Virus record (IMG/VR): IMGVR_UViG_3300037104_000796
Span: 98,359-162,358 of that record
Length of the DNA stretch: 64,000 nt
Direction: 5' to 3' (one strand)
DNA from: a virus
In this document: one piece after another, positions 470-53,304 of the stretch
Layout of the letters: every line of letters starts with the position of its first letter
How positions within the stretch are numbered: position 1 is the stretch's first letter
Notes under the pieces: generated by a model
Database searches by the model: none
What the model was told of the DNA's origin: nothing
What the model saw: only the letters and a program-made list of their open reading frames with translations
Translations under genes and position numbers: made by a program

Positions 470-1531
470 ATGAACAAACAAAATGTAATAAGCGCTATCA
501 CTAAACATTTAAAAATTAATAATAAAATAATGGGCTTTAAATCTAAGAAAAATATTATTTTTATAAATTGGATAAATGATTATTTTAAAAATTCAGAAAT
601 AGCAACATCTAGTTTTTTAGAAAAAGTGTGGGTAATAACACACAACGATAATATAGAACATTGCGCTACTTGTGGAATTAAATCTGTTTTCGGAAATTTT
701 AATGTTGGTTATCGAAGTAAACATTGTAAAAAATGTGCATCTCCTGAGGGATATAGAAGATTAGCACAAAAAAGAAAAGAAGAATCTCCGGAAATAATAG
801 TTACAAAAAATTGTAAAGAGTGTGATATAATTTTTTCATATAAAACGCACAAATTAAATAACACAATAAATAAAGAATTTTGCTCTAAATCTTGTGCGGG
901 CATTTACAATCAGAATAATATGTCCGTAGAAACTATAAAAAATAAAAATGAGAAAACAAATAAAACCAATGTAGAAAAATATAAAGACCCGTGGGTAGTT
1001 AATTCAAAATATACACGAAATATAACAAAAGAAAAATTAGGTGTAGAATATCCATTTCAAGATCCAAAAATTATAAAAAAATGCAAAGATACATTATATG
1101 AAAATACCGGATATACAAATCCTCTCAAAAATCCTAAAACTCTTAAAAAGATGCTAAATACAAAAATAGAACGTTATGGAGATTTATTAATTCCTATGGC
1201 CAAATATAAAGATTTTAAAATGCCTTCAGGGAAAGTTGTTAAAGTTCAAGGAAATGAAAGCTACGGATTGAATATTCTTCTTGAAAAATATAATGAAACT
1301 GATATATTTGTTGGAAGAAAAAATATAGAAAACGAAATAGGACAAATACATTATATTGGAAAAGATCACAGACAACACATATACTATCCTGATATTTACA
1401 TTAAATCACAAAATAAAATATTTGAAGTTAAATCTAATTTCACATATAAAATTCATAAAGAAACTAATGAATTGAAAAAACAAGCCGTTTTAGAAAAAAA
1501 TATAGAATTTGAATTTATGATAATCAATTAA
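470..1531 (+). CDS. Putative free-standing homing endonuclease (Zn ribbons, KYG/NP repeats, C-terminal PD-(D/E)xK domain)
   Basis: CxxC pairs and YYPDIYIKSQNKIFEVKS motif; paralogous to 12250 and 48566. Confidence 0.7.
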   Translation: MNKQNVISAITKHLKINNKIMGFKSKKNIIFINWINDYFKNSEIATSSFLEKVWVITHNDNIEHCATCGIKSVFGNFNVGYRSKHCKKCASPEGYRRLAQKRKEESPEIIVTKNCKECDIIFSYKTHKLNNTINKEFCSKSCAGIYNQNNMSVETIKNKNEKTNKTNVEKYKDPWVVNSKYTRNITKEKLGVEYPFQDPKIIKKCKDTLYENTGYTNPLKNPKTLKKMLNTKIERYGDLLIPMAKYKDFKMPSGKVVKVQGNESYGLNILLEKYNETDIFVGRKNIENEIGQIHYIGKDHRQHIYYPDIYIKSQNKIFEVKSNFTYKIHKETNELKKQAVLEKNIEFEFMIIN

Positions 1532-1887
1532 TTTATGTGATACTTTTCGCCCCACAATAATAAATATGTAAAGCCTTTATCATCTTCAAAAATTAATTTT
1601 TCACGAATATCATCATTAGAAGTATATCGAGTAATTATAAATATGTAATCTCTACCGTCGGCATCAAATGCGCCATATTCTGAACGACGTCTTTTAAACT
1701 TTCCAGATATTGTTTTGTAAATTAGCGAACTTAAAAATTCACGTACTTTATTATCATACTGATTTTCAATTTTCAAATCTTGAATATACTTCAAAATATC
1801 TATTTTTCCAATACCCATATCAGTGATAGGATCACTATCTTCTGTGAAGCCCATTCTTTCATCAATATGTTCTCTAACTAATTTCAT
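1528..1887 (-). CDS. DPxxDMGIG-leader family protein (putative internal head protein)
   Basis: N-terminus MKLVREHIDE-RMGFTEDSDPITDMGIG. Confidence 0.65.
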   Translation of the reverse strand: MKLVREHIDERMGFTEDSDPITDMGIGKIDILKYIQDLKIENQYDNKVREFLSSLIYKTISGKFKRRRSEYGAFDADGRDYIFIITRYTSNDDIREKLIFEDDKGFTYLLLWGEKYHIN

Positions 1888-2543
1888 TAAAAACCTCTTT
1901 CTTCAACTATAAATCTATAATCGAATTTCTTTTTAGATACTATCATGCGTCCATTGGTGCCTCCATAGAGTGTCGTATTTCCATGAGTTTTAAAATAGTC
2001 ACGGGATATATCCATTTGTTCTTTGTTGTTATATTTTTTAAAACGTAAATCTTTATAATTTGTGCCATATCGTATAACATTGTATATGACAATATATGAC
2101 TCTGGATAAAGTTTTAATCCTGAGTGCCACGATGTAAATTGGCCTGATTGATTTTTAGTTACTGCAAAACCCATTCTTTTGGCTTTAAGTACTGCACCGG
2201 GTTTGAGAGTTTCATATGAGAACCCGCCAATACCCATATCAGAAATGGGATCAGAATCTGCATCAGTAAAAGCTTCATCTAATCCAGGCCAACCACCATT
2301 TGGAGGTACATCATCTAAAGCATCTTCAGGTAATTCGTTAAAAATTTTCATCCAATCAAACGCAGGATATTTTTTATGGAATCTACGAATTATTTGTTCA
2401 TATTCATATTGAATATCATCTTCAGTTTTTGCAGCTCTTTTTAATTGTTTAATAAATTTAGACATAAGTCCTATTCCTAAATCTTGAATAGGATCAGATT
2501 CAGCTTTAAATTTCTCGTATAATTGTTCTCTAACTAATTTCAT
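1887..2543 (-). CDS. DPxxDMGIG-leader family protein with two leader copies
   Basis: MKLVREQLYE-KFKAESDPIQDLGIG and internal GLDE-AFTDADSDPISDMGIG. Confidence 0.65.
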   Translation of the reverse strand: MKLVREQLYEKFKAESDPIQDLGIGLMSKFIKQLKRAAKTEDDIQYEYEQIIRRFHKKYPAFDWMKIFNELPEDALDDVPPNGGWPGLDEAFTDADSDPISDMGIGGFSYETLKPGAVLKAKRMGFAVTKNQSGQFTSWHSGLKLYPESYIVIYNVIRYGTNYKDLRFKKYNNKEQMDISRDYFKTHGNTTLYGGTNGRMIVSKKKFDYRFIVEERGF

Positions 2544-2908
2544 TCTTCAATGAATATTTTTTTATCATCGTAAGGAATAGTGTAAGAAGCTTTTTCTTCA
2601 GTATCAAAAACACTTAATCCGTGTGAATCTTCATCAAATTCATTTATTTTACCAACATATATTGTGTATTTTCCCCAACCTTTTCCAGTTTTAATTGAAT
2701 CGTTTTTAACCACAAGCATCTGATTAAATTCGCCTGTTATATGTTTATTTAAGAGTGCATCTTTAAAAGTTTTAATGAAATTTTCACGATATTCTTTTTT
2801 TAATCGCGAACGTGTTCTTCCCGCATTAAAACCGCCGATTCCCATATCGTGAACGGGATCGCCTTCTTCACTAAATTTTTCGTATAAATATTCTCTTACT
2901 TTTTTCAT
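2540..2908 (-). CDS. DPxxDMGIG-leader family protein
   Basis: MKKVREYLYE-KFSEEGDPVHDMGIG. Confidence 0.65.
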   Translation of the reverse strand: MKKVREYLYEKFSEEGDPVHDMGIGGFNAGRTRSRLKKEYRENFIKTFKDALLNKHITGEFNQMLVVKNDSIKTGKGWGKYTIYVGKINEFDEDSHGLSVFDTEEKASYTIPYDDKKIFIEE

Positions 2909-3288
2909 TAGTCATCTATTTGATTATCTAATCCCGCTTTTCCACTTTTCATAGCTTCTTCAGGTGTATTCCATTTATATGGCCCATCTCCCATATAAGG
3001 TTCTCCAGTATCTGGAATTGCAATATAAAATGTTTTAACTATCGTTCCCTGTTTATCTCTTAATACTCCTAAAGCATTTACTTGTACAATTTTAAGATGA
3101 AGACTTCGATATTCAATTATGTCAATTATTTTTTCTTTAACCGGAAATTCATAAGCGCGCACACTCCAATCCCATTCATATTGTTTGTCCAATTTAGCCA
3201 TTTGAGCATCATGTCCAATCTCCATATCTTTTATAGGATCTGAATCTTCGGTAAAGCCTAATGCTTCATATATAAATTGTGCTCTCAT
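2908..3288 (-). CDS. DPxxDMGIG-leader family protein
   Basis: MRAQFIYE-ALGFTEDSDPIKDMEIG. Confidence 0.65.
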   Translation of the reverse strand: MRAQFIYEALGFTEDSDPIKDMEIGHDAQMAKLDKQYEWDWSVRAYEFPVKEKIIDIIEYRSLHLKIVQVNALGVLRDKQGTIVKTFYIAIPDTGEPYMGDGPYKWNTPEEAMKSGKAGLDNQIDD

Positions 3289-3683
3289 TACTTTATAAGA
3301 TAATTTTCTTCAGGCAATACCCTGTAAATGTTAAATACTGCATCTCGTGAAGATGTTGCCTCGGCCTTTTTATCAAAAAAATATAATTCGGCTCCATTTA
3401 AATAGCTGTTATAATCATTTATAGTAAAAGTTATTCTATTAGTTTTTTTAAATGGCTTTTCTCTTACTGCTTTAACTTGTTCAAATATTCCAGAAATGAT
3501 TTTTCCTTTTAATGAATTTAAAAAAACTTGCCATTTATCACGTTTCTTTCCAAAATCTTTAATTTTATCATTTTGTATAGTTTTAAGAGCTTCTGTTTTA
3601 AAATTTACATTGCTTCCAATACTCATATCATGAACAGGGTCACTTACTTCATCAAACTTTTCAAATACAAATTGTGCTTTCAT
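3288..3683 (-). CDS. DPxxDMGIG-leader family protein
   Basis: MKAQFVFE-KFDEVSDPVHDMSIG. Confidence 0.65.
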   Translation of the reverse strand: MKAQFVFEKFDEVSDPVHDMSIGSNVNFKTEALKTIQNDKIKDFGKKRDKWQVFLNSLKGKIISGIFEQVKAVREKPFKKTNRITFTINDYNSYLNGAELYFFDKKAEATSSRDAVFNIYRVLPEENYLIK

Positions 3684-6211
3684 TTCGGTATTTTGTATAT
3701 TTTATTTTTATACATTACTCTTAATCCACGCATTTTATTCTCATCCAAAATATCTGCATCTCCCTTAGGAACAAAAATCATAGAAGCATTTGCATATCTA
3801 TTGAATTTCACTAGAACAGTTTTTACTTGTCCTTCAGTTAAAGAATGCGTTAGACTTCCTGATTGATTTTCTTGTTCTATACTTTGCAATGCTATGTCAT
3901 ATCCTATTCCCATATCATGTATCGGGTCTGATTTTTCAGTAAACTTTTCATTAAGTTGTGGATAAAAATTATCCGGTTGCAACTCTTCTGCTAAGTTTTC
4001 TATTTCAGTTATCCTTTGAACTTCAATATTTACTTGAATGCTTTTATCTGTTCTTCTCGTTCCTTGATTAACACGAATTTGAATAACAACACTATAAAGA
4101 ATTTCTGCAGTAACAATATAATATTTTATTTCAAGTCCGGCGTTGTTATTTCCATCTTTTATGAAAATCTTTCCATCATAATCTTCATACGCTTTATTGT
4201 ATAAACTTACACCACCGTTTTGTGGAAATTTATGAATCTTAACTTTATTAGGATCGCCATCTTTATTCCCTTGAAATTTAAAGAATGCTGGATTTTGTCC
4301 TAAGCTCAAACTATACGCGGCCAAACTGATAAACATGTTATCTTCAGCAACTTTTTCTAAAAGATAATTTAACATCTTTAAAGATCCGTATTTTGCTTTT
4401 GCCGCTGTAGAATCACTAAATCCTTCAACTGTTCCTTCAAGTCGATAATTAAATGAATCGGCTTCTTTTAATTTTGATATATTTGTAGGAATTTTATTTC
4501 TTTGATTAATGATTTCGGTCATGAATCGTTCGGGAGTCCACGTTTGTTCTTCTTTTGTTAAATTATAACGATCAGACACTGTCTCGTGTTTTGAAATATA
4601 ACTCTTTCCTTTTCCACCTTGAGCAGTTTGTTCTTTTAATGAAATGGCTAATGCCAAAATATTTTGGTTTTCAGTTTCTAAATCATCTGCAAAAATATTA
4701 TTGTAATCGCCGAGTTTAAGTTGTTCAGTTTCTTTTTGTGCGGCTTCGGTCCAACGATCAAGAATTTCTTGTTTTTTGCCCGGTTTAACAAGCATCATAT
4801 CCATTGGATTCCATTTGTCTACTGCATTAGCAGCAAATCCGATTCCTTTAGCAGCTTCTTTTTTAATATCAGTAAAGAATTTATCACGATATATTTCCCA
4901 ATCTGAAAAATTTGTTTCTTTTAATTTCTTTCCAATTGACATTGCATTAAAAATACTGTTTACGAAAAGTAAATTGTATTTGTCGCCTTCTTGTGTTAAA
5001 GTTCTAAGAATATAATCAGTATCCTTTTCATCCATGCCTTTAATGCGATTATCAGTTATATCTTTAACAATTTTTTCAATCGTATTAAAATAATTGGCTT
5101 TCTTCTCTTCTTCTTTGCCGATTTTCTTAAATGGTTCATATTCTTCTTCTGTTTGGAAGAAATAAACAACCAAACCTTCTTTAAAAACTGTAGGAGTTTG
5201 CGTCATTTGACCACCTGAAGAAACACCGGAATATTTTACTCCGTATTTATTTCCATCTAATGTGTAAAGCAAACCTGGGAATTTTCCTGATACAGCTCCT
5301 GGCTGTCCGGGATAGACGAGTCTCATTGAACTTTTATCAAGGTCTAAATTAAATTCATCTGATACCTCAGTAAAGTCTTTTACGAATTGATCATCGGAAG
5401 TTTTTGCAATATTTTCAATACGTTTTCCTGTGCTATATTTGTATTTTGCAGGATATTTTTTTGCCACTTCTCTTAATAAAAATGTATTTCCGGTTCCTTT
5501 GGTATATAATTTGGAATCAACTTCATTTAATGATGGGTAAAATGGTTCATGAACGCTTTCATCACCAAGAGTTGCCATCTGCCATTGACGTTTTGATTTA
5601 TATTTAGGACTTTTTGAACCAAAACCATACGGCACTTCTTTTTTGCCTGCGCCTGGAGGAATTAAGTGTTTGATTTGTAATTCTTCTGGATGTCTTTCAT
5701 ATTTTTTATTATATTCATCAGGAGTAACAAATTTTTGAGTTTTTGCATCCGGGTGCCAATCTCCCCAAACTGGAAATATTGCATAATAATCATCATTAAC
5801 TGGTCTTGTGGGATATTTTTTAAGTTTTTTGAAATTTTTAGAAGGAACTTCTATTTTCCATTCACCATCGAAAAAGTCAACTTTTACTTCATCTTCTTGA
5901 AGTTTAATATTTAAATCTTGTAATACTTTTTTAAGCTTTTCTTTATTCTCGGGGAAATGCCAAAACGTTACGATTTTAAAATCAAAGAAAAGTCTTCCCG
6001 CATATTGACCACGACCATCACCATAATATTCTTCTGGATAATCATCAAGATATTTCATATCATCGTGTGTTGTTTGACGCTCACCGATAAGTAATTTTTC
6101 ATTGTAATAAGAAAAAGGCATCGTGTTCGTATCATCCCAGTCTATTGCACGATTCTTCTTTGGATCATATATTGAGTTTGGATTTTCGAATAATCGTGGG
6201 TATAATGACAT
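3680..6211 (-). CDS. 843-aa putative polyprotein with three YPxLxE sites, a central nuclease-like domain and a C-terminal DPxxDMGIG module
   Basis: YPRLFE (E9), FYPSLNE (E230), FYPQLNE-KFTEKSDPIHDMGIG (E755); DKWNPMD...ISLK motif. Confidence 0.6.
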   Translation of the reverse strand: MSLYPRLFENPNSIYDPKKNRAIDWDDTNTMPFSYYNEKLLIGERQTTHDDMKYLDDYPEEYYGDGRGQYAGRLFFDFKIVTFWHFPENKEKLKKVLQDLNIKLQEDEVKVDFFDGEWKIEVPSKNFKKLKKYPTRPVNDDYYAIFPVWGDWHPDAKTQKFVTPDEYNKKYERHPEELQIKHLIPPGAGKKEVPYGFGSKSPKYKSKRQWQMATLGDESVHEPFYPSLNEVDSKLYTKGTGNTFLLREVAKKYPAKYKYSTGKRIENIAKTSDDQFVKDFTEVSDEFNLDLDKSSMRLVYPGQPGAVSGKFPGLLYTLDGNKYGVKYSGVSSGGQMTQTPTVFKEGLVVYFFQTEEEYEPFKKIGKEEEKKANYFNTIEKIVKDITDNRIKGMDEKDTDYILRTLTQEGDKYNLLFVNSIFNAMSIGKKLKETNFSDWEIYRDKFFTDIKKEAAKGIGFAANAVDKWNPMDMMLVKPGKKQEILDRWTEAAQKETEQLKLGDYNNIFADDLETENQNILALAISLKEQTAQGGKGKSYISKHETVSDRYNLTKEEQTWTPERFMTEIINQRNKIPTNISKLKEADSFNYRLEGTVEGFSDSTAAKAKYGSLKMLNYLLEKVAEDNMFISLAAYSLSLGQNPAFFKFQGNKDGDPNKVKIHKFPQNGGVSLYNKAYEDYDGKIFIKDGNNNAGLEIKYYIVTAEILYSVVIQIRVNQGTRRTDKSIQVNIEVQRITEIENLAEELQPDNFYPQLNEKFTEKSDPIHDMGIGYDIALQSIEQENQSGSLTHSLTEGQVKTVLVKFNRYANASMIFVPKGDADILDENKMRGLRVMYKNKIYKIPK

Positions 6212-6226
6212 ATCGATACTTTATTT

Positions 6227-6234
6227 TATATATT
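6227..6234 (-). promoter_or_regulatory. Late-type promoter AATATATA heading the leader-family operon
   Basis: RATAWATA followed by an A-tract before ATG; resembles T4 late TATAAATA. Confidence 0.45.
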
Positions 6235-6251
6235 TAAGACAGGATAAACAA

Positions 6252-6283
6252 AAAAGCTCGATCATTTTAGTAATCGAGCTTTT
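6252..6283 (-). terminator. Rho-independent terminator after sliding clamp gene
   Basis: aaaagctcgat / atcgagctttt stem with U-tract on minus strand. Confidence 0.75.
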
Positions 6284-7182: not shown

Positions 7183-7431
7183 TTATTTGTGTTTTTCTCG
7201 GTCATTGTTAGGTTCTTCCCAATCTACTTCATTTAAAGCTTCATTAATTACTTCTTGAAGTTCATCAAATTCAAATCCTACAACTGCCGCTTCATAAAAT
7301 AATTCTGTCAATTCCATTACTAAACCTTTGCGATCTTTTGCATCATATGATGATCCGCCATCTTCTTTATCACCTTCAAACCAATCTAAATCTGATTCGT
7401 TAAGTTTTTCTTTTACAAATTTACCTTTCAT
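7183..7431 (-). CDS. Acidic small protein with LxE propeptide-like N-terminus
   Basis: MKGKFVKEKLNE-SDLD. Confidence 0.6.
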   Translation of the reverse strand: MKGKFVKEKLNESDLDWFEGDKEDGGSSYDAKDRKGLVMELTELFYEAAVVGFEFDELQEVINEALNEVDWEEPNNDREKHK

Positions 7432-21423: not shown

Positions 21424-21461
21424 CCGTTATTTTATGAATATATACAAAAAGAAGCATTTTT

Positions 21462-21914
21462 ATGCATGCACGACTTATAAATGAGAAATTTACTGAACAA
21501 TCTGATCCCATTCAGGATATGGGTTTGGGTTTGAAAAACAATCCTAAAATTCTTTTGCCTATGGTTATTAAAAAGCTAAAGGAATTTGGAATTAATGCCG
21601 AAGTCAAAAAATCTTTTGAATTTGGTAATGGCCACTACGAAATTTACGTAAATGGAAATTCCGATGATGAAGTTTTGGAGGTTCAATATTTTTATTCTAC
21701 TGATAAAGCTGCTCATGAAGAAGGTTGGAAAGGTGGATTCGCATTATCTGATGATGGTGGAGCTGATTTATGTAAAGTTTCGCATGATCCAATGGTGTCT
21801 ATAAAAGTTTTACTGAAAAGAAAATATGGAACTAAAGCAAAAATTGCAAAATATATTGACAAAGCTGAAAAGAAAATAGCATTTTTAAAAGAAGTAGAAA
21901 AAATAATAGATTAA
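21462..21914 (+). CDS. DPxxDMGIG-leader family protein (dispersed copy)
   Basis: MHARLINE-KFTEQSDPIQDMGLG; AATATATA box at 21437. Confidence 0.65.
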   Translation: MHARLINEKFTEQSDPIQDMGLGLKNNPKILLPMVIKKLKEFGINAEVKKSFEFGNGHYEIYVNGNSDDEVLEVQYFYSTDKAAHEEGWKGGFALSDDGGADLCKVSHDPMVSIKVLLKRKYGTKAKIAKYIDKAEKKIAFLKEVEKIID

Positions 21915-21917
21915 GAT

Positions 21918-22310
21918 ATGATACTCCCAGGAAACGAATCAAAAACACTCCCTATAATTATCTATGAAGAAATGAGGGGAACAATAGTAATAAAAGGTAG
22001 ATCAATTTCTCCAGAAGTAGAAAGTTATTTCGCTGATTTTACGCCTTATCTAGATGAATGCGTATCAAAAAATCCCATGGATTTGAAAATAGATATTGAT
22101 CTCGAGTATTTCAATACCAAAACTGCTAAAATCATGATTAAAATGCTTGACACACTTAAAAAAGTAGTAGAGACAGGTTTTAAAGTTGATGTAACGTGGT
22201 TTTACGAAGCAGATGATGAAGATATGTATGACGCAGGATTAGATTATGAAGAACTATCAAAATTAAAATTCAATTTTGTTGAAAAACCAAGCACAGAAAA
22301 ACCCGATTAA
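21918..22310 (+). CDS. SiaC/DUF1987 family regulatory protein
   Basis: IKGRSISPE, LEYFNTKTAK and VTWFYEADDEDMYDAGLDY motifs. Confidence 0.85.
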   Translation: MILPGNESKTLPIIIYEEMRGTIVIKGRSISPEVESYFADFTPYLDECVSKNPMDLKIDIDLEYFNTKTAKIMIKMLDTLKKVVETGFKVDVTWFYEADDEDMYDAGLDYEELSKLKFNFVEKPSTEKPD

Positions 22311-22324: not shown

Positions 22325-22600
22325 TTATTCTGCATCTATATTTTGTGCATATTCAAAATTCATGAAATATTCTCGCTTATCAAGCAATTGATTTAGAATG
22401 TTATGATCTTCTATTCCAAACTGAGACATAAAATAATCATAAAGATCGCCATCTGTACTATTTTCATCATTTTCTAATGAAGATACTATATTGTACCAAG
22501 GCAAGCTTGGATTTTTTGTTGTTATGTCTTCATACCAAGCAACAAATTCGTCTACTGTCATTCGTGGGTACATACTTTCATTTACTAATTTTGCTTTCAT
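22325..22600 (-). CDS. Acidic small protein with LxE-type N-terminus
   Basis: MKAKLVNE-SMYP; AATATATA box at 22621. Confidence 0.6.
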   Translation of the reverse strand: MKAKLVNESMYPRMTVDEFVAWYEDITTKNPSLPWYNIVSSLENDENSTDGDLYDYFMSQFGIEDHNILNQLLDKREYFMNFEYAQNIDAE

Positions 22601-22616: not shown

Positions 22617-23480
22617 TTAGTATATATTCACCTTTATAAATTCTTTAAACATCTTTACACTAAGATATTGAGTCGTGGTTGAGCGAGATTTTATTTCTTC
22701 ATAGTGTTTATCACGAAACGTTGAGAGAAATTTCTCGAATTTTGGGCGTAACTTTTCATCAAGAAGATTAACACCTAAGCTAACTTCAAATTGAGGCTCT
22801 TTTGAAACGTTGCCAACTGCATATCCATAAGCAGCAATGTAATACTGCCAGTGTTCATCAATCATACGTGAAAGATGATACTCTTTGATCGAAAAGTCTT
22901 TATCGATTCTTGCATCAGTTGTGTCATAACTGTTTCTTGGTGAGATGCTTTGATACACGTTAACACAAGTTTTGACTTTTTGTGAAAGTCCTCCACGATC
23001 TTTAGCTCCAGTGAATGTGATCTTTCCAAGCTGATCACTCTTAATCAGTTGAAGTGTTGGAACAGGATGCTTAACGTTGTAGAAGTACACAGGAGAGATG
23101 AAAACGACGTAATCTCCAAGTTCTGAAGCTTTCTTAGCGAAAGCAAGCCAGAGCTTACTGCCAGTGCCGTAAGGAGGTCCGGTGATAATGAGACGACCAC
23201 GTTTGTAGGTCATCGGATTGTTATGAAGAAAGTCTTGCTTTTTAATTTTGGGATCGTCGGGATCAAGATCGTAATAGTGTACAGGAATGTTCAATTCGTG
23301 TGAGAGTTTGTCAAGATAGGGCCCGAATGCTAGATCACCTGCTGCGGGTTCTACGATGTCTGTAAGTTTATCAAGAGGGATATACTGACGTACCATTTCG
23401 AACACATGATCAAGAAGCTCAGGTGGAGCATAGTATTTGTCCATTGTGTTAACTGCTTCGAATACAAATTGAGCTTTCAT
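22617..23480 (-). CDS. Amino (N6A/N4C) DNA methyltransferase-like protein with MKAQFVFE tag
   Basis: YYAPPE, EPAAG (motif I), QDFL, ITGPPYG (NPPY variant); elevated GC. Confidence 0.75.
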   Translation of the reverse strand: MKAQFVFEAVNTMDKYYAPPELLDHVFEMVRQYIPLDKLTDIVEPAAGDLAFGPYLDKLSHELNIPVHYYDLDPDDPKIKKQDFLHNNPMTYKRGRLIITGPPYGTGSKLWLAFAKKASELGDYVVFISPVYFYNVKHPVPTLQLIKSDQLGKITFTGAKDRGGLSQKVKTCVNVYQSISPRNSYDTTDARIDKDFSIKEYHLSRMIDEHWQYYIAAYGYAVGNVSKEPQFEVSLGVNLLDEKLRPKFEKFLSTFRDKHYEEIKSRSTTTQYLSVKMFKEFIKVNIY

Positions 23481-37064: not shown

Positions 37065-37508
37065 TTATAACAATTCTTGTGATCCGCCCCATGATTTTTT
37101 AAAATCACGATCATCACGATTAAAATCATCACCATTAAATTCTTCACCGGCTTCGTCGTTTGTATCTTCAGCAGATTCTTCATCATCTTCGTCTTCATCC
37201 TCGTCTTCCCAATCATCAGAACCTTCTCTTACCATTCCCCATTCATCTGAGAAATCAGTATAATCAACTTCCAATTCATCCAATATTTCTTCTACTTCAC
37301 CTGGGAAATATCCTTCTTCATCTTTATCACGATTTGTAAGTCCTGTTATTTCATTCCAATTAGTATCAATAAATGATGCCAAATCTGAGGGGCTAACATC
37401 GCCCAAATCTCTAATTTCGTATTCTCCTACAAATAGTTTTGCCCAATAATTTTGTACAAAATTCATTTTTGCAGCATCCGATATTTCATTTATAACTTTT
37501 GCTCTCAT
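37065..37508 (-). CDS. Highly acidic protein with IxE-type N-terminus
   Basis: MRAKVINE; D/E-rich tail. Confidence 0.6.
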   Translation of the reverse strand: MRAKVINEISDAAKMNFVQNYWAKLFVGEYEIRDLGDVSPSDLASFIDTNWNEITGLTNRDKDEEGYFPGEVEEILDELEVDYTDFSDEWGMVREGSDDWEDEDEDEDDEESAEDTNDEAGEEFNGDDFNRDDRDFKKSWGGSQELL

Positions 37509-37526: not shown

Positions 37527-37871
37527 TTACACTACAAGAATTTCATCGTATGGTATGCCCAATTCATTGGCTACTTCAGCTATGATTTTTTCCCCTATCT
37601 TTCCAATTTCATCAGAATCGATATTGCCTAAGCCCTTTTCAACAACGTCAGGTTCCCAACCTTGTTCAACTACTTTCATCCACCAAATATTTCTGCAATC
37701 TTCAATAGTCTCTTCGTCATTTGAATCATTCCAAGGAAGATAATCTTTAAATACTTTTTCCATTTTTGCTTTCCATGCTCTATAAATTTGTGCATGATAT
37801 CTTTGATAAAAAGCACGAACTTTTTTGTCGGCTGAATATTCATCTAAAGCTTCTTTAACTAATTTTTTCAT
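37527..37871 (-). CDS. Small protein with LxE-type N-terminus
   Basis: MKKLVKEALDE. Confidence 0.6.
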   Translation of the reverse strand: MKKLVKEALDEYSADKKVRAFYQRYHAQIYRAWKAKMEKVFKDYLPWNDSNDEETIEDCRNIWWMKVVEQGWEPDVVEKGLGNIDSDEIGKIGEKIIAEVANELGIPYDEILVV

Positions 37872-38330: not shown

Positions 38331-38714
38331 TTAAAATGATTTAGCGTTTTCTTTACCACAAATTAATTTTGCAATAATATATTCTTTGCTTAAAGAATCA
38401 GGAAGACCTTCTCCATCATCGTCGTTGAATTCAGTTTCAAAGAAATCTGCATAATCACCTAAATCTTCATAAGAAAGTTCTGTTTTAGGCGATTCCAGAA
38501 TTTCTTGAATTCCCGCATCGATATGTTCTAACATGTCTTCCAATGTCATATCATATGCATCTGGATTGAATTCATCACCCATAGCTGCAACTTCAGAACC
38601 ATCTGGTGTTGACATACAAAACATACTGTCATCATATTTATCGGGCTTTGGAATTGATTTTAGAATTTTATCTAAATCAGATTCATTTAAACTTTCTTTT
38701 ACTAATTTTTTCAT
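38331..38714 (-). CDS. Acidic protein with LxE-type N-terminus
   Basis: MKKLVKESLNE-SDLD. Confidence 0.6.
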   Translation of the reverse strand: MKKLVKESLNESDLDKILKSIPKPDKYDDSMFCMSTPDGSEVAAMGDEFNPDAYDMTLEDMLEHIDAGIQEILESPKTELSYEDLGDYADFFETEFNDDDGEGLPDSLSKEYIIAKLICGKENAKSF

Positions 38715-52575: not shown

Positions 52576-53304
52576 CTATTTGTTTATTTTTAATCCTTTA
52601 TTCCAAGGAATTTTTCTTTTACCAACTATATATAGTTTTTCTTTAATTTTAGGTCTTTGCATTGCCAGTATTGTGTTAGCACTTATTTTATCTTTTGTAT
52701 ATTGAGACATATTTAATTTAGATATACGCATATTTTCTATCCATTCTTTATATTTTTTATTTCCTTCAATTTCTCCGTATCTTTTTATAAAAATATCTTT
52801 CTTTGATACACCCTTTTGTTTTTTAATAATTTTTTCTATTGTTTCAGAAGATACATCGTGTCCTAATAATGCTTTGTTTCTTTTTTCTTTTGTATCTTTA
52901 GATTGAGGTTTTCTAAATTTTGCTTTATCTCTCATTAACTGTTTTGATTCTTCTGAATGTGTTCTATCTCCATTACAGGTTCCTCCATCCCAACATACAT
53001 TATATCCACCTTGAGATATATGAGTTTTATATAATCGTATATAATATCCTTGTTTATCTCCTGCTTCTTTTCTTGTATCACATATTTCTAATACTTTTTT
53101 AGTAAAATTTCTTCTACCATATTTTAATTTAGCTATTCTAATTTCTCTTCCGCTTCCTAGATATCTATCTTTTTCTGGTTCGATAAATGTACTTCTGTCA
53201 CCTACATACTGCTGTCCGGTAATATTATTTGTCGTTAAATATACATAATGATAAAGTTTATTAACTACATCAGCATTTTCTATAGATTCTCTTACCAGTT
53301 TCAT
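52576..53304 (-). CDS. GIY-YIG homing endonuclease with MKLVRE N-terminal tag
   Basis: MKLVRESIE then YVYLTTNNITGQQYVG and YLGSG. Confidence 0.88.
   Translation of the reverse strand: MKLVRESIENADVVNKLYHYVYLTTNNITGQQYVGDRSTFIEPEKDRYLGSGREIRIAKLKYGRRNFTKKVLEICDTRKEAGDKQGYYIRLYKTHISQGGYNVCWDGGTCNGDRTHSEESKQLMRDKAKFRKPQSKDTKEKRNKALLGHDVSSETIEKIIKKQKGVSKKDIFIKRYGEIEGNKKYKEWIENMRISKLNMSQYTKDKISANTILAMQRPKIKEKLYIVGKRKIPWNKGLKINK

What the first reader, a model, noticed from the sequence alone, without database searches (positions are those of the whole stretch)
1528..6211. Array of unrelated proteins sharing a conserved E|KFTExSDPIxDMGIG leader: candidate virion packaging/ejection tag system
Seen: six translationally coupled genes (TAATG/ATGA overlaps) plus a dispersed copy at 21462-21914 carry 8 copies of [LIVF]xE-(K/A/R)..F(T/S/K/D)ExSDP(I/V)xD(M/L)(G/E/S)(I/L)G. 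The sequence after the motif looks unrelated between copies. Codons vary synonymously, so the constraint is on the peptide rather than the DNA. Known: T4 prohead protease gp21 cleaves after (I/L)-x-E, and T4 internal proteins share an N-terminal capsid-targeting peptide. Inference: cleavage would expose a common ~15-aa mature N-terminus that could act as a capsid-docking or ejection signal, so diverse payloads (anti-defence, host takeover) get packaged and injected. A late-type box sits upstream of both loci.
Basis: partly seen in the sequence, partly recalled or inferred. Interest (0 to 1): 0.9.

Follow-up and report, generated by a model that had tools for sequence, protein, structure and literature searches.

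The report
Shared leader-plus-tag on phage cargo proteins
A huge uncultured phage puts the same short head-loading-style leader plus a near-invariant 15-residue tag in front of dozens of small, fast-evolving proteins, so it probably loads many cargo proteins into its head; cutting and packaging have not been shown.

Summary
Six overlapping-stop/start genes (1528-6211, minus strand) and one dispersed gene (21462-21914) carry 8 copies of [LIVM]-x-E, a 1-4 residue spacer, then F-x-E-x-S-D-P-I-x-D-M-G-I-G. Codons vary synonymously.

The 162-kb record has 24 copies. A complete 405-kb relative has 82-88. A profile finds 1,675 protein clusters, with up to 10 tags per protein.

The element has two parts:
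- A leader, MKLVRExLxE, matches the phage T4 capsid-targeting sequence in length and key positions.
- A clade-specific tag follows it. AlphaFold models it as disordered, ahead of well-folded bodies of different kinds.

The complete relative encodes a T4 gp21-family prohead protease fused to a scaffold. That protein is the most [LIV]NE-rich untagged protein in its genome.

"Unrelated bodies" is only partly right. Three of the five small array proteins form one family; the other bodies are distinct.

My best reading (about 0.55) is head-targeted cargo cut by the prohead protease, each piece keeping the tag as a docking peptide. Nothing is experimentally shown.

The scan had already noted this motif in other windows of this same genome. 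I class it as a new variant of the T4 internal-protein system.

The parts
6252..6283 (-). Terminator-like hairpin that ends the upstream unit, just before the array's promoter box
   Evidence: 13-pair stem followed by a T run
6220..6235 (-). Promoter-like box AAATATATAAAATAAA, 15 nt before the start of the 843-aa gene
   Evidence: 32 of 55 [AG]ATATATA hits in the record lie 0-45 nt upstream of same-strand starts (about 20-fold enrichment). The box also precedes the portal gene and large structural genes.
3680..6211 (-). 843-aa multi-module protein that heads the array: a 9-aa leader MSLYPRLFE, an extra N-domain, a conserved ~525-aa core, then a tagged 73-aa C-module
   Evidence: The G001 ortholog starts MSFYPRLLE and runs straight into the core (42% identity to G000 residues 224-770). 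No Pfam, PHROG or PDB match.
6185..6211 (-). Leader MSLYPRLFE (YPxLxE cassette 1)
5522..5542 (-). Internal junction FYPSLNE (YPxLxE cassette 2), at the boundary where the G001 ortholog begins
3902..3970 (-). Junction NFYPQLNE followed by the tag KFTEKSDPIHDMGIG inside the 843-aa protein
3288..3683 (-). 131-aa tagged protein with leader MKAQFVFE; type-A body (helix plus small beta-barrel)
   Evidence: AF2 gives pLDDT below 50 for residues 1-22 and 77-94 for the body.
2908..3288 (-). 126-aa tagged protein with leader MRAQFIYE and an acidic body that has no detected relatives among the other modules
2540..2908 (-). 122-aa tagged protein with leader MKKVREYLYE; a distant type-A body
1887..2543 (-). 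218-aa two-module protein with tags at residues ~10-26 and ~88-107; body 1 is helical and body 2 is a beta-rich small barrel
   Evidence: The same body 2 occurs elsewhere as a stand-alone gene, or as the 1st, 2nd or 3rd module.
1528..1887 (-). 119-aa tagged protein with leader MKLVREHIDE; type-A body, last gene of the array
   Evidence: hhalign 92% to the 3288-3683 family
21436..21450 (+). Promoter-like box GAATATATACAAAAA upstream of the dispersed tagged gene
21462..21914 (+). 150-aa dispersed tagged protein (MHARLINE, then the tag) with a singleton body

Best explanation
The array encodes cargo proteins for the phage head, marked by a two-part N-terminal address.

Part 1 is an 8-10 residue leader (MKLVRExLxE or MKAQFVFE; in the large protein, YPxLxE). 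It works like the T4 capsid-targeting sequence. It takes the protein to the assembling prohead core and ends in [LIVM]-x-E, the site type cut by the gp21-family (S77) prohead protease.

Part 2 is an acidic, disordered 15-residue tag (KF-x-E-x-SDPI-x-DMGIG). After the cut it becomes the new N-terminus of every module. Most likely it is a position-independent docking or sorting peptide for one conserved head component.

Because the junction works inside a chain as well as at its start, modules can be strung into polyproteins of 2 to 10 modules, loaded as one unit, and then cut into single ~120-residue proteins.

The bodies are mostly basic and evolve fast. They include ankyrin repeats, small beta-barrels and helical bundles, and would be delivered with the DNA to act on the host.

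Shown here: the motif, its peptide-level constraint, its modular shuffling, the disordered tag ahead of folded bodies, and the protease, scaffold and MCP context in a complete relative.

Inferred: targeting, cleavage, retention of the tag, and ejection.
For: 1. T4 IPII and IPIII, read from NC_000866, begin MKTYQEFIAE|A. The leader here, MKLVRE(S/Q)L(N/Y)E|KF, has the same length and the same M1, K2, E6, [IL]8 and E10. PMC9026906 assigns T4 CTS processing to residues 8 and 10.
2. All 24 tags in this record follow [LIVM]-x-E. So do 548 of 557 tags in 178 database proteins.
3. The complete 405-kb relative G001 (median 58% aa identity, syntenic) has tagged genes, then a 781-aa protein with an N-terminal Peptidase_S77 domain, then a Gp23-family MCP. 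The MCP has ALNE|AAMGG near residue 43. The protease-scaffold is the most [LIV]NE-enriched of 416 untagged proteins (10 sites against 1.0 expected, P 1.7e-7), and N is the usual P2 residue at tag junctions.
4. Leader-only proteins exist: 3-4 by a strict PSSM against 0.19 expected, and more by pattern.
5. LR756500, a 462-kb tagless relative, has its own leader, even closer to T4's, MKYIKEYEEF(I/L)xE|A, on about 25 proteins. Six of ten tested are LRR proteins.
6. AF2 gives pLDDT below 50 for all three modelled tags and 74-94 for the bodies, which differ in secondary-structure class. Eight of 65 tagged ORFs are ankyrin proteins.
7. One body module occurs as a stand-alone gene and as the 1st, 2nd or 3rd module, always joined at the tag. 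A YPxLxE duplication brackets an inserted domain in the 843-aa protein.
8. 71% of bodies have pI above 8, against 43% of other proteins (P 9e-4). Tagged proteins are 28-43% identical between the two genomes, against 77% for the portal. T4 internal proteins are likewise basic and poorly conserved.
9. In this record two tagged genes follow the portal gene, once the homing endonuclease genes are set aside.
Against: - There is no proteomic or biochemical evidence of cleavage, packaging or ejection.
- The S77 protease and the MCP lie outside this 40%-complete record, so they are known only from the relative.
- 82-88 modules per genome is far beyond any known set of phage internal proteins, which raises a capacity question.
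- T4 needs no second tag, so the tag's role is a guess.
- [LIV]-x-E is a common tripeptide.
- The promoter box is not specific to tagged or structural genes. It heads units holding about 40% of all genes, and in G001 the association is not significant.
- A GIY-YIG endonuclease-like protein (52576-53304) also starts MKLVRESIE, and such a protein is not an expected head cargo.
- The nearest relatives have the same protease type but no tag, so the protease alone does not explain the tag.
Confidence: 0.55

Rival explanations
1. The whole leader plus tag is a removable propeptide. A phage papain-like (C1) cysteine peptidase cuts after ...M-G-I-G, with Ile in the P2 position that this protease family prefers. 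This releases the bodies and, from polyproteins, free tag peptides. The processing need not occur in the head.
For: A Peptidase_C1 protein is encoded at genome 54171-54920. Its G001 ortholog sits directly between tagged genes. The final Gly is invariant and Ile at -2 is 23 of 24. The same protein gives a sub-threshold Peptidase_C39_2 match.
Against: Residues after the GIG are not conserved. The upstream [LIVM]-x-E is kept in 98% of tags even at internal positions, which this model does not need. In this record the peptidase gene is not next to tagged genes. Lak-A2 has a partial match to the peptidase but no tags.
Confidence: 0.12
2. The tag is a short linear motif, such as a degron or chaperone handle, read in the cytoplasm by a phage or host machine. 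One candidate is the MoxR-type AAA+ ATPase with its DUF2201 metallopeptidase/VWA partner. In this view the tag times or regulates many small proteins and has no role in the virion.
For: The tag is disordered and near-invariant. A MoxR-like ATPase and a DUF2201 protein lie next to a tagged gene at genome 45229-49264.
Against: DUF2201 is also present in Lak-A2 and LR756500, which have no tag. The ATPase here, and the DUF2201 protein in LR756500, carry head-type leaders themselves, so they look like cargo rather than readers. This model does not explain the constant [LIVM]-x-E or the likeness to the T4 CTS.
Confidence: 0.1
3. The tag anchors small display modules on the outside of the virion, as decoration or fibre-like appendages, by docking to a capsid or neck protein. 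The [LIVM]-x-E is incidental.
For: Many multi-RBP and decoration systems share a conserved N-terminal anchor ahead of variable domains (general knowledge). Ankyrin and small-barrel bodies are binding modules.
Against: The leader has the T4 CTS layout, which is a signal for the interior. The bodies are basic. Beads-on-a-string polyproteins of up to 10 unrelated modules do not fit a stoichiometric surface lattice.
Confidence: 0.08
4. The conserved stretch acts at the nucleic-acid level, as a recombination junction for cassette exchange, a homing target or a translation-initiation enhancer. The peptide itself is a by-product.
For: Modules are clearly shuffled at the tag. The genome is full of homing endonuclease genes.
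Against: Mean nucleotide identity over the core is 67%, with free synonymous variation at invariant residues. Internal copies cannot serve in translation initiation.
Confidence: 0.05
5. All tagged modules are one fast-evolving domain family, and the motif is simply the best-conserved first element of their fold.
For: Some bodies are paralogs (clusters of 19, 12, 8 and 6). Two modelled bodies both give weak small-beta-barrel matches.
Against: The tag has pLDDT below 50 and is not packed on the body in either model. The bodies include ankyrin repeats, a helical bundle and beta-barrels. The major clusters are unrelated by profile-profile comparison, at 1.4% probability or less.
Confidence: 0.03

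Closest known systems
Phage T4 internal proteins IPI, IPII, IPIII and Alt with their capsid-targeting sequence, processed by prohead protease gp21
   Same: Both have a 10-residue N-terminal leader that begins MK and ends [L/I]-x-E. Both put it on diverse, basic, poorly conserved small proteins in variable loci, in a phage lineage with a gp21-family protease.
   Different: There is no sequence homology to the T4 IPs. A second, near-invariant 15-residue tag follows the cut site. The junction also works inside chains, giving polyproteins of up to 10 modules. The scale is 24 copies in a 162-kb fragment and 82-88 in a full genome, against a handful in T4. Cleavage and packaging are unproven here.
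Processed head and ejection proteins and head paralog families of giant phages phiKZ, 201phi2-1 and SPN3US
   Same: Many head proteins are cut after Glu at a short motif by a gp21-related protease. Both have expanded paralog families of inner-head proteins, and propeptides thought to target proteins to the prohead.
   Different: Those phages use S/A/G-x-E sites and long, non-uniform propeptides. They have no common tag retained on the mature proteins and no multi-cargo polyproteins. They are an unrelated phage lineage.
Encapsulin cargo-loading peptides (recalled from general knowledge, not tested here)
   Same: Both are short, disordered, conserved peptides on otherwise unrelated cargo that dock it inside an HK97-fold shell. 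The Gly-Ile-Gly-type core is reminiscent.
   Different: Encapsulin peptides are usually C-terminal, involve no protease and sit in a non-viral compartment. Binding of this tag to any shell protein is untested.
Leader MKYIKEYEEF(I/L)xE on LRR proteins of the uncultured megaphage LR756500
   Same: It is a related megaphage (MCP 41.5% identical to G001's) with an S77 protease and about 25 proteins sharing a T4-like leader that ends in [IL]-x-E.
   Different: It has no tag, no internal copies and no polyproteins. Its payloads are LRR rather than ankyrin or small-barrel proteins.

Membership tests
T4-type CTS-bearing internal head proteins (functional class) | Short (10-19 aa) N-terminal propeptide shared by otherwise unrelated proteins | tested here: met
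   Leaders of the MKLVRExLxE and MKAQFVFE types occur on tagged and untagged proteins. They have the same length and key positions as T4 MKTYQEFIAE.
T4-type CTS-bearing internal head proteins (functional class) | Propeptide ends in a hydrophobic-x-Glu prohead-protease site | tested here: met
   24 of 24 tags here and 548 of 557 in database proteins follow [LIVM]-x-E. This shows the sequence only, not cleavage.
T4-type CTS-bearing internal head proteins (functional class) | Phage encodes a gp21-family (Peptidase_S77) prohead protease | tested here: met
   It is absent from this 40%-complete record. It is present in the complete syntenic relative G001, fused to a scaffold-like region and next to the MCP.
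T4-type CTS-bearing internal head proteins (functional class) | Proteins are cleaved at the site and found inside virions, then ejected | not testable with these tools
   This needs virion proteomics or biochemistry.
T4-type CTS-bearing internal head proteins (functional class) | Sequence homology of the payloads to T4 IPI, IPII, IPIII or Alt | tested here: not met
   No Pfam or PHROG family matches and there is no tblastn match in 50,697 phage records. The likeness is functional and architectural, not one of family descent.
Encapsulin-type cargo-loading peptide | Short, conserved, disordered peptide on unrelated cargo | tested here: met
   pLDDT is below 50 for three tags ahead of confident bodies. 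The bodies fall in 53 BLAST clusters.
Encapsulin-type cargo-loading peptide | Peptide binds the interior of the HK97-fold shell | not testable with these tools
   No complex prediction or binding assay is available.
Double-glycine (C39-processed) leader peptides | Gly-Gly, Gly-Ala or Gly-Ser at positions -2/-1 of the leader | tested here: not met
   Position -2 is Ile or Leu in 24 of 24 copies; only -1 and -3 are Gly.
Double-glycine (C39-processed) leader peptides | Dedicated C39 peptidase or ABC exporter | tested here: inconclusive
   The only sign is a sub-threshold Peptidase_C39_2 match (20.6 bits against a cut-off of 24) on a Peptidase_C1 protein.
Virus polyprotein with repeated processing junctions | Several independent domains in one ORF separated by a conserved junction | tested here: met
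   There are 8 modules in the 918-aa ORF, up to 10 in database proteins, and two separately folded bodies in the 218-aa protein.
Virus polyprotein with repeated processing junctions | Junctions are cut by a cognate protease | not testable with these tools
   This is inferred from the S77 family's preference for cutting after Glu.

The most novel reading that the evidence does not exclude
The tag is a position-independent cargo-loading peptide that docks on one conserved head component (MCP inner face, scaffold or portal). The phage could then load beads-on-a-string polyproteins and cut them into dozens of different effector modules per virion. That would be a natural plug-and-play protein-delivery platform with over 1,600 distinct cargo clusters in nature. 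It would combine T4-style targeting and cleavage with encapsulin-style docking.
Probability: 0.3. Interest if true: 0.85.

Novelty: new variant of a known kind. Interest (0 to 1): 0.7.

Why it matters
If the reading holds, this clade has turned the T4 internal-protein idea into a very large modular system. One short address would serve for about a tenth of its genes and would be usable at chain starts and inside chains.

That would explain a large block of dark matter in megaphage genomes. It would point to a big reservoir of injected host-takeover or anti-defence proteins (ankyrin repeats, small barrels). It would also offer a compact, portable signal for loading foreign proteins into large capsids.

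The idea is directly testable. Semi-tryptic peptides beginning at K-F-x-E in particle proteomes would settle both cleavage and packaging at once.

Tried and rejected
- Pfam and PHROG scans of all seven tagged window proteins gave nothing above threshold.
- tblastn of the 843-aa and 150-aa proteins against 50,697 phage records gave nothing.
- A PDB sequence search with the 843-aa protein gave nothing. The ESM Atlas gave only unnamed viral clusters and weak restriction-enzyme leads at 0.86, which I did not pursue.
- The T4 late box TATAAATA is not enriched (32 found against about 63 expected). The real upstream box is [AG]ATATATA, and it is not specific to tagged genes.
- Foldseek and VIA searches with both models gave no strong match. 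The best were weak small-beta-barrel rows (E 0.03 or worse; Z 5.6).
I reran it on 20 clusters.
- A word-based homolog search for the 131-aa protein found only one relative, so the alignment used for AF2 was shallow.
- Literature searches for strings from the motif found nothing relevant.
- PTm1 has neither the leader nor the tag.
- The MoxR/DUF2201 pair as a tag-specific partner is rejected, because DUF2201 also occurs in tagless relatives.
- The one-shared-fold reading is rejected. A DNA-level role for the conserved stretch is made unlikely by the codon variation and is kept only as a low-confidence rival.

Full report
**What is in the window.** The minus strand carries six genes at 1528-1887, 1887-2543, 2540-2908, 2908-3288, 3288-3683 and 3680-6211. 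Their stops and starts overlap as TAATG or ATGA at all five junctions. A strong terminator-like hairpin (6283-6252) is followed by a promoter-like box and then the 843-aa gene, so the six genes look like one unit. A six-frame scan finds exactly eight copies of the motif, including one in the plus-strand gene 21462-21914. Codons at invariant residues vary freely: four Gly codons, four Pro codons and both Ser codon classes. Mean nucleotide identity over the core is 67%. The constraint is therefore on the peptide.

**Scale beyond the window.** The window is the last 64 kb of a 162,358-bp IMG/VR record that CheckV rates 40% complete. The record holds 24 tags in 15 ORFs. One 918-aa ORF has eight tag-headed modules about 105-127 residues apart.
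- A profile of the tag finds 72 loci on about 35 viral contigs.
- It finds 82-88 copies in 60 ORFs of a complete 405,016-bp relative with terminal repeats, here called G001.
- It finds 1,675 protein clusters among 1.84 billion representatives, with up to 10 tags per protein.
- Across 178 retrieved proteins the spacing between tags has a median of 124 residues.

**The element has two parts.** Alignment of the 24 copies shows an invariant Glu preceded by L, I, V or M two residues earlier. A spacer of 1-4 residues follows, usually Lys. Then comes F-x-E-x-S-D-P-I-x-D-M-G-I-G. At chain starts the Glu closes an 8-10 residue leader (MKLVRExLxE or MKAQFVFE).

I read T4 IPII and IPIII from the T4 record; both begin MKTYQEFIAE followed by Ala. 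The leader here has the same length and the same M1, K2, E6, I/L8 and E10. The T4 literature places processing determinants at residues 8 and 10 and targeting determinants at residues 4 and 7. It describes the internal proteins as a diverse, basic, poorly conserved set united only by this sequence.

The leader also occurs without the tag. A strict position matrix finds 3-4 such untagged proteins against 0.19 expected. A looser pattern finds about a dozen, among them a MoxR-type AAA+ ATPase and the methyltransferase-like protein at 22617-23480.

In the 843-aa protein a related cassette, YPxLxE, occurs three times. The G001 ortholog begins with that cassette and runs straight into the conserved core. 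The protein here has an extra 215-residue domain bracketed by a duplicate of the cassette, and the modules after the tag differ between the two genomes.

**Protease context.** This fragment has a T4-type portal gene but no S77 protease or Gp23 match. In G001 (median 58% aa identity, syntenic) two tagged ORFs sit directly upstream of a 781-aa protein whose N-terminus is a Peptidase_S77 domain, followed by a 590-aa Gp23-family capsid protein.
- The capsid protein has ALNE followed by AAMGG near residue 43, where a propeptide boundary is expected.
- The protease-scaffold protein has ten [LIV]NE sites against 1.0 expected. That is the strongest enrichment among 416 untagged proteins (P 1.7e-7).
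- Asn is also the commonest middle residue at tag junctions, yet it makes up only 7-9% of [LIV]-x-E sites genome-wide.

Proteases of this family cut after Glu at a short motif in T4, phiKZ and SPN3US.

**Tag versus body.** AlphaFold2 with shallow alignments gave pLDDT below 50 for all three modelled tags: residues 1-21 and 79-107 of the 218-aa protein, and residues 1-22 of the 131-aa protein. The bodies scored 74-94. They are a helical bundle, a beta-rich domain, and a helix plus small barrel. Fold searches gave only weak small-beta-barrel rows.

The 106 bodies of the two genomes fall into 53 BLAST clusters, the largest with 19, 12, 8 and 6 members. The large clusters are unrelated by profile comparison. 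Eight of 65 tagged ORFs are ankyrin-repeat proteins and the rest have no Pfam family.

Within the window, the bodies of 1528-1887 and 3288-3683 are homologous (92%, E 6e-7). The body of 2540-2908 aligns with them through a shared GKxITGxF segment and C-terminal strand. So "unrelated" holds for the set as a whole but not for three of the five small array genes.

One body, the second module of the 218-aa protein, is found elsewhere as a stand-alone gene and as the first, second or third module of longer proteins. It is always joined at the tag.

Bodies are basic: 71% have pI above 8, against 43% of other proteins. They diverge fast, at 28-43% identity between the two genomes against 77% for the portal. 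The tag itself is almost unchanged between the genomes.

**Relatives.** By capsid protein, the nearest GenBank records are the Prevotella Lak megaphages (48%), the uncultured 462-kb phage LR756500 (41.5%), and Tenacibaculum, Chryseobacterium and Flavobacterium phages (25-30%). This points to Bacteroidota hosts.
- Lak-A2, LR756500 and PTm1 all have an S77 protease.
- None of the three has the tag, while the same search finds 88 copies in G001.
- PTm1 also lacks the leader.
- LR756500 has its own leader, MKYIKEYEEF(I/L)xE followed by Ala or Asn, on about 25 proteins. It is found only at N-termini, never inside chains. Six of ten tested payloads are leucine-rich-repeat proteins and one is the DUF2201 protein.

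So the T4-like leader is shared, in lineage-specific forms, with at least one tagless relative, and it sits on repeat-type binding proteins. The tag and the polyprotein habit are an addition found only in the G000/G001 clade among the genomes searched.

**Promoter box.** The T4 late box TATAAATA is not enriched. [AG]ATATATA is: 32 of 55 hits lie within 45 nt upstream of a same-strand start, against 2.9% of positions. It precedes the portal gene, large structural genes, the 843-aa gene and the 21462 gene. It also heads units that contain about 40% of all genes. The link to tagged genes is significant in this record (10 of 12 against 79 of 191) but not in G001. Its timing class is unknown.

**Rivals.**
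- A papain-family peptidase (genome 54171-54920) could cut after M-G-I-G, and its G001 ortholog lies between tagged genes. However, this does not explain the constant upstream Glu site, and the residues after the tag are not conserved.
- The MoxR/DUF2201 pair is not tag-specific. DUF2201 also occurs in the tagless relatives Lak-A2 and LR756500, and the ATPase here and the LR756500 DUF2201 protein carry leaders themselves.
- A DNA-level role is made unlikely by the codon analysis, and a single-fold reading is rejected by the models and the ankyrin payloads.
- An external-display role cannot be excluded, but it fits the leader and the basic bodies poorly.

**Verdict.** This is a new variant of the T4 capsid-targeting/internal-protein system, not a member of the T4 protein families by descent.

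Earlier notes of this scan on other windows of the same genome reached a similar reading. I tested several of their claims. The claim that the ATPase-protease pair is linked to the tag did not hold up as tag-specific.

Noticed in passing
window 21918-22310 (+): The gene right after the dispersed tagged gene encodes a SiaC-family regulatory phosphoprotein (PF09345, E 6.8e-25), which is unusual in a phage.
   Followed up: partly
window 470-1531 (+): A DUF7487 protein (E 2e-29) with a weak TnsA-like endonuclease N-terminal match converges on the end of the array and has its own [AG]ATATATA box. It is probably a mobile nuclease gene inserted at this variable locus. The syntenic locus in G001 lacks it and has one tagged gene instead of five.
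   Followed up: partly
window 52576-53304 (-): A GIY-YIG (SegE-like, sub-threshold) endonuclease-like protein starts with the head-type leader MKLVRESIE. Either it captured the 5' end of a cargo gene, or the leader is not strictly a packaging signal.
   Followed up: partly
window 7183-7431, 22325-22600, 22617-23480, 37065-37508, 37527-37871, 38331-38714 (all -): These proteins carry the leader (MKGKFVKEKLNE, MKAKLVNE, MKAQFVFE, MRAKVINE, MKKLVKEALDE, MKKLVKESLNE) but no tag. None has a Pfam family.
   Followed up: partly
LR756500.1 (loci L117-L136), e.g. L117:13446-14279: A related 462-kb uncultured phage has its own T4-like leader MKYIKEYEEF(I/L)xE on about 25 proteins. Many are LRR proteins, and they cluster at 11-17 kb and 313-318 kb.
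   Followed up: yes
G001 363311-364087 (locus L098): A papain-family peptidase gene is embedded between tagged genes in the complete relative. It carries no leader or tag itself.
   Followed up: partly
genome 45229-48597 (L005:5229-8597, -): A MoxR-type AAA+ ATPase with the leader MKKLVPESIEE lies next to a DUF2201 metallopeptidase/VWA protein. In LR756500 the DUF2201 protein carries that phage's leader. The pair may itself be head cargo.
   Followed up: partly
genome 78440, 94924, 95278 (L001/L002, -): Three tagged ORFs appear to start at TTG or GTG, giving (M)EPIKENLYE and (M)KLV(R/K)E, so ATG-only gene calls truncate them past the tag.
   Followed up: no
whole record and G001: [AG]ATATATA followed by an A-rich stretch, 5-30 nt before start codons, is the dominant promoter-like motif (55 hits here, 243 in G001). 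The classic T4 late box is not enriched.
   Followed up: partly
genome 60201-65138 and 73692-74270 (L001): Several HNH and GIY-YIG homing endonuclease genes interrupt the head/tail gene block between the portal gene and its neighbours.
   Followed up: no
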